Source: Octopus vulgaris (taxonomy: Eukaryota). Taken from it: DNA of 64,000 bases. Every line of letters starts with the position of its first letter. Position 1 is the stretch's first letter. A program made the position numbers and the translations under genes. Below the pieces are notes generated by a model. It made no database searches. It saw nothing but the letters and a program-made list of their open reading frames with translations, and was not told the origin of the DNA. Of the stretch, positions 1 through 59,982 are shown one piece after another. The stretch lies in contig OX597827.1 of the NCBI GenBank assembly GCA_951406725.2, forward strand, positions 18,104,001-18,168,000. Direction: 5' to 3'.

Positions 1-289
1 CACAGACACGAATACTTCTGATCTTTCGGATGCTTTTATGCTATGTAGTTAGGTAAGGGCAGATTTTAAATATAACGAAATATAACTGATTGTCCTCTGG
101 TTACAAAAGAATATCTTCTTTTCATTGGCCATTTAAGATCACGGGATGAAACTGAAAATTTAGTATCTACTGATAAATGAGAGGCAATATTTTATTCTGA
201 CTAGAAGTAATCAATTTTGCTTTCTGTAGAAATTTCAGCGAAACTAAATTTTATTCAAAATTTATGAGATGATATTAACAGCCAATAGT

Positions 290-1871: not shown

Positions 1872-1872
<1 letters not shown>

Positions 1873-2046
1873 GTAAAATAATATGTGACAATTATTCGCT
1901 GGCCAAGATAAAACTCTGAGTTTCGGATGCCGAGGTGGAAATCCACACCACCATCTCTTCGGTTATCTGGTCATCTGAAGAAACCTCTATTTACATAATA
2001 CTGAGGTCTCTTTCTTTTGTTATCTTGTTATCTTACCGTATTTACC
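1872..2046 (-). mobile_element. (TA)n-adjacent Penelope-type non-autonomous element with degenerate HHR motif (1903-1970)
   Basis: Minus strand CCAGATAA-CCGAAGA-GATG..CATC-C-GAAA-CTCAGAG-TT-TTATCTTGG; related segments at 19741-19806 and 36770-36909. Confidence 0.55.
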
Positions 2047-2281
2047 TTGATTGTGATGTTGAACTTATAAATATATATATATCCCACTAGGCCGCTGGTG
2101 ACAAAAAAATTCTACAAAATTTTTTTGCCACCCTATATTGATTAATTATGAATTTTCTGGTTATCCGTAATATATATATTTGCTATATTTGGCGCGAGTG
2201 CGATGATTTGAAAATTTTAGGTCAGATATTGCCGAGGCAGGGACAGAAGTGCCTCGTGAAAATATCTGTTCCGATCTGGCT

Positions 2282-2388
2282 ATTTCTTACTGACGAATCT
2301 AAGGGCCTATGGAAGATTGGCTTGATTTAATTTAATCAGGTTAGTTTACCATTAAACAGTAGATGAAACGGTGCATCGTATAAGAAAT
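2282..2388 (+). ncRNA. Type I hammerhead ribozyme, copy 1
   Basis: Stem I ATTTCTTA(2282-89)/TAAGAAAT(2381-88); CTGACGA 2290-96; stem II ATCTA/TAGAT; GAAA 2365-68; stem III ACGGTGCATCGT; GUA triplet, predicted cut after 2380. Confidence 0.85.
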
Positions 2389-2770
2389 TACAGGGTAAAC
2401 GTTTTTTTAATTTTCTCCTGGTTTGCGGAATTAATGTTATTTTGCGGTTGAAGCTTTGGCTGTTATTTCTAGTGGGTGAATGGCCTATTATGGCCGTTCC
2501 TTGATTGTGATGTTGAACTTATAAATGGTCTATGACTATTTAATTTTCTCCCACTAGGCCGCTGGTGACAAAAAAATTCTACAAAATTTTTTTGCCACCC
2601 TATATTGATTAATTATGAATTTTCTGGTTGATTCCGTAATGGAATCGGCGGCTTATATTTATTTGCTGCCAATAAATTTGGCGCGAGTGCGATGATTTGA
2701 AAATTTTAGGTCAGATATTGCCGAGGCAGGGACAGAAGTGCCTCGTGAAAATATCTGTTCCGATCTGGCT

Positions 2771-2877
2771 ATTTCTTACTGACGAATCTAAGGGCCTATG
2801 GAAGATTGGCTTGATTTAATTTAATCAGGTTAGTTTACCATTAAACAGTAGATGAAACGGTGCATCGTATAAGAAAT
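2771..2877 (+). ncRNA. Type I hammerhead ribozyme, copy 2
   Basis: Same motif; CTGACGA 2779-85, GAAA 2854-57, predicted cut after 2869. Confidence 0.85.
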
Positions 2878-3260
2878 TACAGGGTAAACGTTTTTTTAAA
2901 TTTTCTCCTGGTTTGCAGAATTAATGTTATTTTGCGGTTGAAGCTTTGGCTGTTATTTCTAGTGGGTGAATGGCCTATTATGGCCGTTCCTTGATTGTGA
3001 TGTTGAACTTATAAATGGTCTATGACTATTTAATTTTTTCCCACTAGGCCGCTGGTGACAAAAAAATTCTACAAAATTTTTTTGCCACCCTATATTGATT
3101 AATTATGAATTTTCTGGTTGATTCCGTAATGGAATCGGCAGCTTATATTTATTTGCTGCCGATAAATTTGGCGCGAGTGCGATGATTTGAAAATTTTAGG
3201 TCAGATATTGCCGAGGCAGGGACAGAAGTGCCTCGTGAAAATATCTGTTCCGATCTGGCT

Positions 3261-3367
3261 ATTTCTTACTGACGAATCTAAGGGCCTATGGAAGATTGGC
3301 TTGATTTAATTTAATCAGGTTAGTTTACCATTAAACAGTAGATGAAACGGTGCATCGTATAAGAAAT
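3261..3367 (+). ncRNA. Type I hammerhead ribozyme, copy 3
   Basis: Same motif; CTGACGA 3269-75, GAAA 3344-47, predicted cut after 3359. Confidence 0.85.
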
Positions 3368-3492
3368 TACAGGGTAAACGTTTTTTTTAATTTTCTCCTG
3401 GTTTGCGGAATTAATGTTATTTTGCGGTTGAAGCTTTGGCTGTTATTTCTAGTGGGTGAATGGCCTATTATGGCCGTTCCTTGATTGTGATG

Positions 3493-3523
<31 letters not shown>

Positions 3524-3789: not shown

Positions 3790-3797
<8 letters not shown>

Positions 3798-3941
3798 AGT
3801 GAATTGAAGAAATGGAGCTGAACGAAGATTGAACAGAAATCGTTTTATTTCATTGTGCCTTTCGAAACACGTGTAGAATGAAATAAAACGATTTCTGTTC
3901 AATCTTCGTTCAGCTCCATTTCTTCAATTCACTAATAATAT
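3790..3941. repeat. Perfect inverted repeat, 65-bp arms, 22-nt spacer, at start of a (TA)n-flanked element (to ~4092)
   Basis: 3790-3854 is the reverse complement of 3877-3941; spacer GTGCCTTTCGAAACACGTGTAG. Confidence 0.95.
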
Positions 3942-46044: not shown

Positions 46045-46324
46045 TAACGATTAAATAATTAAATTTAGAAAAATTAGAAGAAAAGTTTTTTAAAAGAATA
46101 TTTCTATAGTAGTGTTCAGATGTAAGTGGCATTCTGCCTTTCTCTGACTCCCTTGTTTGCACTTGTGTGTTCGAGGTCGAACACACAACGACCTCGAACA
46201 CACAAGTGCAAACAAGGGAGTCAGAGAAAGGCAGAATGCCACTTACATCTGAACACTACTATAGAAATATTCTTTTAAAAAAACTTTTCTTCTAATTTTT
46301 CTAAATTTAATTATTTAATCGTTA

Positions 46325-54310: not shown

Positions 54311-55402
54311 TTGCCACTATCAACCACCACCACCACTAGCAATCCCAACACCACCACCACCACCATTGCTGCTGCTGTCACTAATACCACGAGCACCTCT
54401 ACTGGCAACACAACATCTAGCCACACCTCCACCACTAGCAACATCTCCACCACTAGCAACATCTCTACCACTAGTAACGACTCTAGCACAAGCAACACTT
54501 CAACCACTCACAACATCTCCGCCATTAGCAACACCTCTACCACTAGCAACACTTCCATCACTAGTAATATCTCAACCCCTAGCAACATCTCGAGCAACAC
54601 CTCTACCACTAGCAACAGTTCCATCACTAGTAATATCTCAACCCCTAGCAACATCTCGAGCACTAGCAACGCCATCGCCACTAGCAACATCTCCATCACT
54701 AGTAACATCTCAACCACTAGCAACATCTTTAACACTAGCAACACCTCTACCAATAGCAACATCTCCACTATTAGCACCGCCTCAACCAATAGCAACGCTT
54801 TCTCTACAAGCAACACCACCACTAGAAACATCTCCACCACTAGCAACATCTCCACCACTAGCAACACCTCCACCACTAGCAACACCTCCGTTGCTGGCAA
54901 CATTTCTGCCACTAGCAACACCTCCGTCACTAGTAACATCTCAACCACTAGCAACATTTCTACCACTGGCAACACCTCCTCCACTGGCAACACCTCCTCC
55001 ACTTGCAACACCTCTACCAATAGCAACATCTCTACCTCTGCCAACGCCTCTACCAATAGCAACGCCTTCTCTACAAGCAACACTACCACTAGCAACACCT
55101 CCACCATTAGCAACACCATCACCACCACGACAACTGCTATAAATACCACTAGCAGCGCAACCACCACTAGCAATGCCATCATCGCAACCAACACCACCAT
55201 TAGCAACATCACCACTACCGTCACCACAGGCAACATCACTACTACTAGCAACACCCCCGCCATTAGCAACACTCCACTACTACCGCCACTAATAGCACTA
55301 GCACCACCAGCAGCAACACCTCCACCACAGGCAACACTCCCACGCAGCCAACACCACGACAGCCAACACCTCCACTGCAGGCAACGCCTCCACCACTACT
55401 AA
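54311..55402 (+). repeat. Degenerate 18-bp minisatellite (ACTAGCAACATCTCCACC) with open Thr/Ser/Asn-rich frame
   Basis: Periodic TSNIST translation; several frames open, no ATG start. Confidence 0.8.
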
Positions 55403-58530: not shown

Positions 58531-58820
58531 TATATATATATGTATGAATGTATTTTTTTTTTCATCTTGTCTTGTATCAACCATTAGATTGAGACCATTC
58601 TGGAGCATCACCATGACGAAGTTCTAGTCGAAGGAATTGGCCTTAGTACGTTTATTAAGCCTTGTACTTATTCCGTCGGTCTCTTATCACATTTCGGGGG
58701 TTTTCCCTGCGTCTCTATCCATTTCCTTTTTTGTATTAGGAATTTGGTAACTATTTCCTGAACATGAATTGCAAATGTATTACGCAACAAAGTGGGAGTT
58801 AGTGATCTGGTCATTGGTAC

Positions 58821-59982
58821 ACGACAGACTACTCTGACTATCAACGTTACTGCTATCCTGATTATTGGTCAACGACAGACTACTTTGATTGTCAACGTTA
58901 CTGTTATCTTGATTATTGGTCAACGACAGACTATTTTGATTATCAACGTTACTGCTATCCTGATTATTGGTCAACGACAGACTATTTTGATTATCAACGT
59001 TACTGCTATCCTGATTATTGGTCAACGACAGACTATTTTGATTATCAACGTTACTGTTATCCTGATTATTGGTCCACGACAGACTACTTTGATTGTCAAC
59101 GTTACTGCTATCCTGATTATTGGTCCACGACAGACTATTTTGATTATCAACGTTACTGCTATCCTGATTATTGGTCAACGACAGACTATTTTGATTATCA
59201 ACGTTACTGTTATCCTGATTATTGTTCAACGACAGACTATTTTGATTATCAACGTTACTGTTATCCTGATTATTGGTCCACGACAGACTATTTTGATTAT
59301 CAACGTTACTGTTATCCTGATTATTGGTCAACGACAGACTATTTTGATTATCAACGTTACTGCTATCCTGATTATTGGTCAACGACAGACTATTTTGATT
59401 ATCAACGTTACTGTTTGTTATCCTGATTATTGGTCAACGACAGACTATTTTGATTATCAACGTTACTGCTATCCTGATTATTGGTCAACGACAGACTATT
59501 TTGATTATCAACGTTACTGTTATCCTGATTATTGGTCAACGACAGACTATTTTGATTATCAACGTTACTGTTTGTTATCCTGATTATTGGTCAACGACAG
59601 ACTATTTTGATTATCAACGTTACTGTTTGTTATCTTGATTATTGGTCAACGACAGACTATTTTGATTATCAACGTTACTGCTATCCTGATTATTGGTCAA
59701 CGACAGACTATTTTGATTATCAACGTTACTGTTACCCTGATTATTGGTCAACGACAGACTATTTTGATTATCAACGTTACTGTTTGTTATCCTGATTATT
59801 GGTCAACGACAGACTATTTTGATTATCAACGTTACTGTTTGTTATCTTGATTATTGGTCAACGACAGACTATTTTGATTATCAACGTTACTGTTATCCTG
59901 ATTATTGATCAACGACAGACTATTTTGATTATCAACGTTACTGTTTGTTATCCTGATTATTGGTCAACGACAGACTATTTTG
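58821..59982. repeat. 51-bp minisatellite, about 22 units, with 55-bp variants
   Basis: Unit ACGACAGACTATTTTGATTATCAACGTTACTG(C/T)TATCCTGATTATTGGTCA. Confidence 0.97.

What the first reader, a model, noticed from the sequence alone, without database searches (positions are those of the whole stretch)
2297..2400. Atypical HHR architecture: 58-nt loop II with sub-hairpin and a 7-bp pseudoknot candidate
Seen in all three copies: loop II (2302-2359) contains CTTGATT/AATCAGG, plus GTTTACC (2344-50), which is complementary to GGTAAAC (2394-2400) just 3' of stem I. Stem III ACGGTGCATCGT is self-complementary with one G-U. AGATT (2314-18) could compete with stem II. Known: stem I-loop II tertiary contacts boost HHR activity, and palindromic stem III allows dimeric cleavage. 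Inference: the long loop would evade standard HHR descriptors.
Basis: partly seen in the sequence, partly recalled or inferred. Interest (0 to 1): 0.75.

Follow-up and report, generated by a model that had tools for sequence, protein, structure and literature searches.

The report
Long-armed hammerhead in animal retrozyme
This is a likely self-cutting hammerhead RNA in a 490-base protein-free jumping repeat of a known kind; its 'long loop' is predicted to fold as a long stem, the proposed 7-pair knot is not supported, and a different short knot upstream likely braces the ribozyme.

Summary
All strings sit where stated, in a type I hammerhead within a 490-bp tandem repeat (857 exact core matches genome-wide). 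The interpretation needs correcting. The '58-nt loop II' folds as an 18-bp rod on a 7x7 internal loop, and the rod covaries across relatives (36 compensatory cells; 0 of 500 shuffles reach that). GUUUACC lies inside the rod. Freeing it costs 11-13 kcal/mol against about 10.8 gained. Its pairing with GGUAAAC shows no compensatory cells, fails in four of eight families, and the closing C occurs in 15 of 797 copies. A different contact fits better: GGCU (2278-81), just 5' of stem I, with GGCC (2304-07) in the internal loop. It is possible in 20 of 20 representatives and switches to GGU/ACC in one family, but cross-family covariation is modest (p 0.02-0.13). Dimeric cleavage is supported: the unconstrained fold of two units is the double hammerhead. 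The element is a non-LTR retrozyme with Penelope-type insertions. This scan noted the family before on other DNA of this genome. Cleavage and expression are untested. A new variant of a known kind.

The parts
2046..3492 (+). Single-armed insertion of a ~490-bp non-coding retrozyme repeat (array 2082-3492, 2.9 units; short 5' piece 2046-2070); 3' end about 132 nt past the third predicted cut, joined to (AT)n at 3493
2282..2388 (+). Type I hammerhead, copy 1: stem I 2282-89/2381-88, CUGACGA 2290-96, GAA 2365-67, predicted cut after GUA 2380
   Evidence: stem I covaries; N7 free
2771..2877 (+). Hammerhead copy 2, predicted cut after 2869
3261..3367 (+). Hammerhead copy 3, predicted cut after 3359
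2297..2364 (+). Stem II domain: 5-bp base AUCUA/UAGAU (A-U at 10.1-11.1), internal loop 2302-08 / 2353-59 (3' side A-rich), distal rod
   Evidence: compensatory AUCUG/CAGAU subfamily
2309..2352 (+). 18-bp distal rod of stem II with AU-rich apical loop; contains CTTGATT/AATCAGG, AGATT and GTTTACC
2278..2281 (+). GGCU just 5' of stem I: predicted 5' strand of a short pseudoknot
2304..2307 (+). GGCC on the 5' side of the stem II internal loop: predicted partner of GGCU
2368..2379 (+). Palindromic stem III; -0.2 kcal/mol as a hairpin, -17.5 as a 12-bp helix between neighbouring units
2344..2350 (+).
2391..2420 (+). Weak 3' hairpin holding the conserved GG(W)AAAY-GTTTTT motif; GGTAAAC (2394-2400) is part of it

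Best explanation
The region is a type I hammerhead motif in a ~490-nt non-coding tandem repeat, whose stem II is predicted to be a long rod with an internal loop, and which likely cuts as a double hammerhead braced by a short GGY/RCC pseudoknot rather than by GUUUACC/GGUAAAC. Shown: core, stems, copy numbers, covariation of stems I, II, III and the rod, fixed insertion ends in (AT)n. Inferred steps: (1) read-through transcription of the array; (2) stem III palindromes of neighbouring units pair into a 12-bp helix, so each core cuts the other unit's GUA site and releases a 489-nt monomer, while a lone unit or circle would cut poorly; (3) GGCU 2278-81 pairs with GGCC 2304-07 to hold stems I and II side by side, and the rod closes the internal loop and presents that strand; (4) Penelope-like RT/endonuclease supplied in trans copies the RNA into AT microsatellites.
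For: Rod: z -4.69; 95.1% of 427 cells paired, 36 both-side changes, 0 of 500 shuffles as high; kept with different letters and lengths in eight families. Double hammerhead: the unconstrained MFE of 2262-2912 is the double hammerhead (-192.9 kcal/mol, 9.2 better than two single ones; stem III inter-unit P 0.91-1.0); 115 of 117 distinct copies have a fully self-complementary stem III, including a TGCA to TATA centre in 8 (TATA found with a pattern that did not ask for a palindrome). GGY/RCC: with fixed windows and no anchoring, nt -14..-6 pair with nt +4..+13 by 3-6 bp in 20 of 20 representatives; summed duplex energy -55.2 against -22.6 +/- 5.4 for shuffled flanks (0 of 2000); five control windows average -0.3 to -3.5 against -6.9; freeing the loop-side strand costs 0-3.4 kcal/mol, and freeing both strands in both units 2.5. 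GGC/GCC becomes GGU/ACC in family F3; subfamilies extend it (GGCUG/CGGCC, GGCCG/CGGCC, AAGGCU/AGCCUU). Spacing from the core is 6-9 nt and 5-9 nt, where canonical 6-bp stem I and 4-bp stem II loops meet (PMC4209133, passages). Mobility: 62 of 62 internal 3' ends in 37 loci fall at +125..136 (33) or +231..240 (29), followed by AT repeats; 22 of 37 loci are head-to-head with one end of each kind, as described for Penelope-like elements (bioRxiv 2021.04.23.441226, passages).
Against: No cleavage, probing or expression data. GGY/RCC covariation is modest: cross-family permutation p 0.022 anchored (one of 20 anchors was misplaced) and 0.071 unanchored (median 0.031, maximum 0.13 over 320 choices of representatives); counts of flanking paired cells were not significant (p 0.45-0.81; helix length p 0.22); on the MAFFT alignment, which is out of register there, only 54.7% of cells pair. 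The window's own helix is only 4 bp with one G-U. The eight families share ancestry. F7 and F8 are single damaged copies picked from a search whose control count was nearly as high (34 against 24). The 10.1-11.1 pair is G-C in 0 of 117, which may lower activity (recalled). No autonomous partner homologous to the unit was found.
Confidence: 0.62

Rival explanations
1. One reading: GUUUACC pairs with GGUAAAC as the stem I-stem II contact of the active ribozyme, or as an alternative fold that switches it.
For: 7 bp (with G-U) remain possible in 53 of 56 F1, 17 of 19 F2, 6 of 13 F3 and 3 of 5 F6 copies; 14 of 19 F2 copies have a perfect AUUUACC/GGUAAAU, an A-U where the window has G-C. 86.9% of cells pair on alignment A1. 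The rod keeps an A-A mismatch at 2313/2348 in several families. Net energy is near zero in F1-F2, so it is not impossible.
Against: 0 both-side changes; 396 of 500 shuffles pair as well; matched against swapped families p 0.52. 0 of 24 F4 copies reach 6 bp; weak or shifted in F3a, F5, F8, though GG(W)AAAY stays conserved there. C2400 in 15 of 797 copies, and T dominates in four other data sets. Costs 11.1-11.9 kcal/mol or 13.1 per unit against 10.8 of stacking before any loop penalty. The rod is local and is transcribed first (inference).
Confidence: 0.12
2. No Watson-Crick tertiary contact: the ribozyme works as a double hammerhead with non-canonical contacts or none, GGY and RCC are kept for another reason (protein or RT recognition), and the rod is a tolerated AT-rich outgrowth that adds to the self-pairing of the RNA.
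For: Covariation tests on GGY/RCC are borderline. Rod length runs from about 5 to 19 bp, and its apex varies by ATTTA units. The mussel retrozyme hammerhead lacks the usual loop contacts and still cuts at about 0.1 per min (PMC7229834, section 14).
Against: GG and CC stay complementary while stems I and II around them turn over; GGU/ACC switch in F3; 0 of 2000 shuffles.
Confidence: 0.2
3. The motif is no longer catalytically useful; the repeat spreads as uncut multimeric RNA and the hammerhead is a passenger.
For: Fixed ends lie 131 and 236 nt past the cut, not at it. Eight of nine Xenopus retrozyme dimers did not cut in vitro (bioRxiv 10.64898/2026.07.22.740005, part 3). Weak 10.1-11.1 pair.
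Against: Stems I, II, III covary around the core in all families and N7 alone varies freely. The core letters were demanded by my patterns, so their constancy is not independent evidence.
Confidence: 0.06

Closest known systems
Animal non-LTR retrozymes (Cervera and de la Pena 2020, PMC7229834, passages and section 14; Li et al. 2026, bioRxiv 10.64898/2026.07.22.740005, parts 1-3 of 5)
   Same: Non-coding tandem units, one type I hammerhead each, low GC (37%), highly self-paired unit (65% paired; 24 of 107 consensus pairs with both-side changes), dispersed monomers to multimers.
   Different: Unit of 470-495 nt, above the 170-400 nt of the 2020 paper but within the 51-972 bp of the 2026 preprint; stem II domain of 43-69 nt instead of a 4-bp stem with a small loop; longer 12-nt palindromic stem III; expression and circles not shown here.
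Pseudoknotted hammerheads (Perreault et al. 2011, PMC3088659, passages and section 10; figures not seen)
   Same: A short helix joins stems I and II; about 40% of hammerheads are said to use one, in all three types, including the human C10 hammerhead (5 bp).
   Different: Here the stem II partner would sit in an internal loop capped by a long rod rather than in a terminal loop; 3-6 bp; untested.
Hammerheads of Penelope-like elements and dimer-cleaving type I hammerheads (Cervera and de la Pena 2014, PMC4209133, passages)
   Same: Weak palindromic helix III that favours the dimeric fold; helix II larger than usual.
   Different: Their helix II is 6-8 bp with conserved G10.1-C11.1; here 5 bp plus internal loop plus 18 bp and no G-C at 10.1-11.1; no ORF between the copies.
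PK hammerhead (Zhan et al. 2024, PMC11300833, passages)
   Same: Pseudoknot helix and an A-rich strand nearby.
   Different: There the pseudoknot replaces helix II itself; here helix II is intact and the knot is peripheral.

Membership tests
Hammerhead ribozyme, type I | Core C3 U4 G5 A6 N7 G8 A9, G12 A13 A14, A15.1-U16.1, H17 | tested here: met
   CUGACGA 2290-96, GAAA 2365-68, GUA 2378-80
Hammerhead ribozyme, type I | Three helices around the core, helix I open | tested here: met
   8-bp stem I, 5-bp stem II base, stem III; covariation
Hammerhead ribozyme, type I | Paired 10.1-11.1 position, usually G-C | tested here: inconclusive
   A-U in the window; over 117 copies A-U 69, G-U 18, A-C 24, U-U 4, A-A 2, G-C 0; some may be read with an extra base after A9 as in PMC4209133
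Hammerhead ribozyme, type I | Match to an Rfam hammerhead model | tested here: not met
   No hit at E up to 10; a short-stem-II candidate and a shorter relative are missed too, so the test is insensitive here
Hammerhead ribozyme, type I | Self-cleavage after H17 | not testable with these tools
   Needs in vitro transcription
Non-LTR retrozyme | Tandem non-coding units each with a type I hammerhead | tested here: met
   (41 distinct cut-to-cut monomers of 444-499 nt); no ORF of 150 codons over the array
Non-LTR retrozyme | Dispersed, high copy number | tested here: met
   857 exact matches, control 0; 230 more in related families, control 1
Non-LTR retrozyme | Penelope-type insertion structure or pLTR kinship | tested here: inconclusive
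   Fixed 3' ends, 5' truncation, inverted arms and (AT)n targets are met; no sequence kinship to the one ORF-bearing family examined
Non-LTR retrozyme | Expressed as unit-length linear and circular RNA | not testable with these tools
Pseudoknotted hammerhead (Perreault type) | Helix of 4 or more bp between stem I and stem II peripheries, conserved in homologues: GUUUACC/GGUAAAC | tested here: not met
Pseudoknotted hammerhead (Perreault type) | Same, for GGY/RCC | tested here: inconclusive
   3-6 bp in 20 of 20, 4 or more in 18 of 20; cross-family p 0.02-0.13
Pseudoknotted hammerhead (Perreault type) | Rate falls on disruption and returns on compensation | not testable with these tools
   Bench test

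The most novel reading that the evidence does not exclude
A hammerhead architecture not found in the papers searched: a double hammerhead in which a short GGY/RCC pseudoknot docks the 5' flank of stem I into an internal loop of a long stem II, leaving a variable rod free to project as a handle, with GUUUACC/GGUAAAY possibly an alternative fold in some families. Long-stem-II hammerheads would then be a large overlooked class in this animal lineage, shared by retrozymes and their Penelope-like helpers.
Probability: 0.4. Interest if true: 0.55.

Novelty: new variant of a known kind. Interest (0 to 1): 0.38.

Why it matters
Hammerheads, their pseudoknots, dimeric cleavage and retrozymes are all known, so this does not open a new class. 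It would add a natural case of a stem I-stem II contact made through an internal loop, with eight diverged families as a ready set of natural compensatory mutants, and it suggests that searches with short loop II limits or a fixed G10.1-C11.1 pair may miss over a thousand copies in one genome. A stem II that tolerates rods of 5-19 bp beyond the contact is also of interest as a natural insertion site for ribozyme switches.

Tried and rejected
Rfam on the whole window: the 150 rows shown of 346 were microsatellite-driven miRNA and snoRNA matches. AGATT competing with stem II: P 0.0. GTTTACC/GGTAAAC: see rival 1. RCC pairing with the 3' GG instead: control windows -2.7 and -3.5 against -6.9. Alignment-column count for GGY/RCC is weak because MAFFT puts the families out of register; RNAalifold on A1 recovered only stems I and III. 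A pattern search for further families without the TGCA centre gave 34 hits against 24 in the control; only L140 and L160 were kept, because they align with the unit. Sequencing runs: no RNA holder listed; expression therefore stays open. Search for an autonomous partner: no long Penelope-type ORF attached to the repeat in the loci read; one abundant neighbouring ORF family has only a weak GIY-YIG match (E 0.72) and no similarity to the unit. The descriptors of Perreault et al. were not found in the 11 supplement files held, so loop limits of published descriptors were not checked. Paper searches: hammerhead+retrozyme+octopus, hammerhead ribozyme+cephalopod, hammerhead+extended stem II+internal loop+tertiary (0 papers); none listed this architecture, but figures and most supplements were not seen and subscription papers are not covered. 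A Pol III terminator role for the T run after GGTAAA was considered and left open: the unit holds other T runs and must be read through.

Full report
Setting. The window comes from a 2.8-Gb, microsatellite-rich animal genome; a cephalopod is my guess from its make-up and from earlier notes, not a tool result. The finding lies in a tandem repeat at 2082-3492, period 490, 2.9 copies, 96% matches. Each unit holds a type I hammerhead motif: stem I 2282-89/2381-88, CUGACGA, stem II base AUCUA/UAGAU, GAA, stem III ACGGUGCAUCGU, predicted cut after GUA 2380. Rfam gives no hammerhead match at E up to 10, but it also misses a short-stem-II candidate from the same genome.

The long loop is a rod. Folding 2297-2364 gives a 5-bp base, an internal loop and an 18-bp rod, -22.4 kcal/mol, z -4.69. 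AGAUU and GUUUACC pair with each other's neighbourhood in the same rod, with P 0.91-1.0 except A2348. An exact pattern finds 857 copies, control 0; looser ones find 230 and 10 more, controls 1 and 1, which fall into related families that align over the whole unit. On 30 sequences (A1) the rod has 95.1% of 427 cells paired and 36 both-side changes, 0 of 500 shuffles as high; that control ignores relatedness, but the slid controls reach only 21-55%. Rod length varies from about 5 to 19 bp.

The proposed pseudoknot. A 7-bp match is expected in 2-10% of shuffles. Freeing both strands costs 11.1-11.9 kcal/mol in one unit and 26.2 for two units, against 10.8 of stacking. On A1 it has 0 both-side changes and 396 of 500 shuffles pair as well. 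Matched families pair no better than swapped ones (p 0.52). The closing C is rare: 15 copies against 782 with T, and T dominates in four other data sets. Against my reading: 6-7 bp remain possible in most F1, F2 and some F3 and F6 copies, and 14 of 19 F2 copies have a perfect A-U version; that change also improves the rod. No F4 copy (0 of 24) reaches 6 bp, yet GG(W)AAAY-GTTTTT is kept there, inside a weak 3' hairpin. Its conservation therefore has another, unknown cause. Counts use 117 of 132 distinct contexts; 15 decayed, misparsed or unassigned ones were dropped, and F5 was not caught by that filter.

A better contact. All eight families keep GGY 6-9 nt before the core and RCC 5-9 nt after it while the stems around them change. 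In the window GGCU 2278-81 can pair with GGCC 2304-07. F3 has GGU/ACC; other members extend the helix in matching ways (UUGGC/GCCAA, CUGGCA/UGCCAG, AAGGCU/AGCCUU, GGCCG/CGGCC). With fixed windows the pairing is 3-6 bp in 20 of 20 representatives, -55.2 summed over eight families against -22.6 +/- 5.4 for shuffled flanks (0 of 2000), and the strands are nearly free. True covariation is only modest: p 0.022 anchored, 0.071 unanchored, median 0.031 and maximum 0.13 over 320 choices; paired-cell and helix-length counts were not significant, and the out-of-register alignment count was weak. I found this pairing after seeing the data. I put it at about 60-65%.

Dimeric cleavage. Stem III is worth -0.2 kcal/mol as a hairpin and -17.5 as a duplex. 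It is fully self-complementary in 115 of 117 copies; the TGCA centre was required, but the outer pairs were free and a TATA centre came from a pattern without that demand. The unconstrained fold of two units (2262-2912) is the double hammerhead, 9.2 kcal/mol below two single ones. This matches what is described for metazoan type I hammerheads (PMC4209133, passages).

The element. Cut-to-cut monomers are 444-499 nt, with a conserved multi-hairpin fold (24 of 107 consensus pairs with both-side changes in 12 monomers). In 37 loci all 62 internal 3' ends fall at +125..136 or +231..240 and run into AT repeats; 22 loci are head-to-head pairs with one end of each kind, 13 are single-armed like the window's, 2 were cut by the locus edge. 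Such partial tandems, inverted truncated copies, tails and microsatellite bias are described for Penelope-like elements (bioRxiv 2021.04.23.441226, passages). An abundant ORF family with a weak GIY-YIG match ends in its own type I hammerhead with a 53-nt stem II domain and also runs into (AT)n, but is not similar to the unit; calling it Penelope-like rests on recalled motifs.

Comparison. It works like, and on the testable features belongs with, animal non-LTR retrozymes (PMC7229834; bioRxiv 10.64898/2026.07.22.740005). Stem I-II pseudoknots are common, about 40% (PMC3088659). What differs is the long stem II with the contact likely made in an internal loop, and the lack of G10.1-C11.1. My searches did not list this layout, but figures, most supplements and subscription papers were not seen. 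Earlier notes of this scan describe the same family elsewhere in this genome; I confirmed their two-armed, two-ended insertions myself.

Verdict. New variant of a known kind, interest 0.38.

Noticed in passing
window 1872-2045, minus strand: A different ~175-bp repeat (1312 first-look candidates) with a hammerhead-like core C(C/U)GAAGA...GAAAC UCAGA GUU, 6-bp stem I and 31-nt stem II; most copies read have U4 changed to C. It sits head-to-head with the retrozyme and ends in (AT)n.
   Followed up: partly
window 20018-20170: Fragment of the same retrozyme without the hammerhead.
   Followed up: no
window 3790-3940: Near-perfect inverted repeat whose right arm starts with GAAACACGTGTAG, like the 3' half of a hammerhead; weak similarity to the ORF-bearing family's loci.
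   Followed up: partly
L182:2150 and L181-L209: Abundant ORF family (17,214 first-look candidates; GIY-YIG E 0.72) with a type I hammerhead whose stem II domain is 53 nt with an internal loop and distal hairpin; AGGGU/ACCCU could form a similar flank-to-loop contact in some copies.
   Followed up: partly
L127, L133, L135, L161: Further hammerhead-like motifs with ~57-nt stem II domains and an ACACGUGU/ACAUGUGU stem III, a separate family.
   Followed up: no
window 2394-2408 and all families: GG(W)AAAY-GTTTTT is conserved 14-25 nt past the cut in all eight families without a clear pairing reason; possibly a protein or RT signal.
   Followed up: partly
window 58705-59883 and 54340-55173: Minisatellite arrays of 51-bp and 18-bp period.
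   Followed up: no
window 46140-46228: Perfect 40-bp-arm inverted repeat.
   Followed up: no
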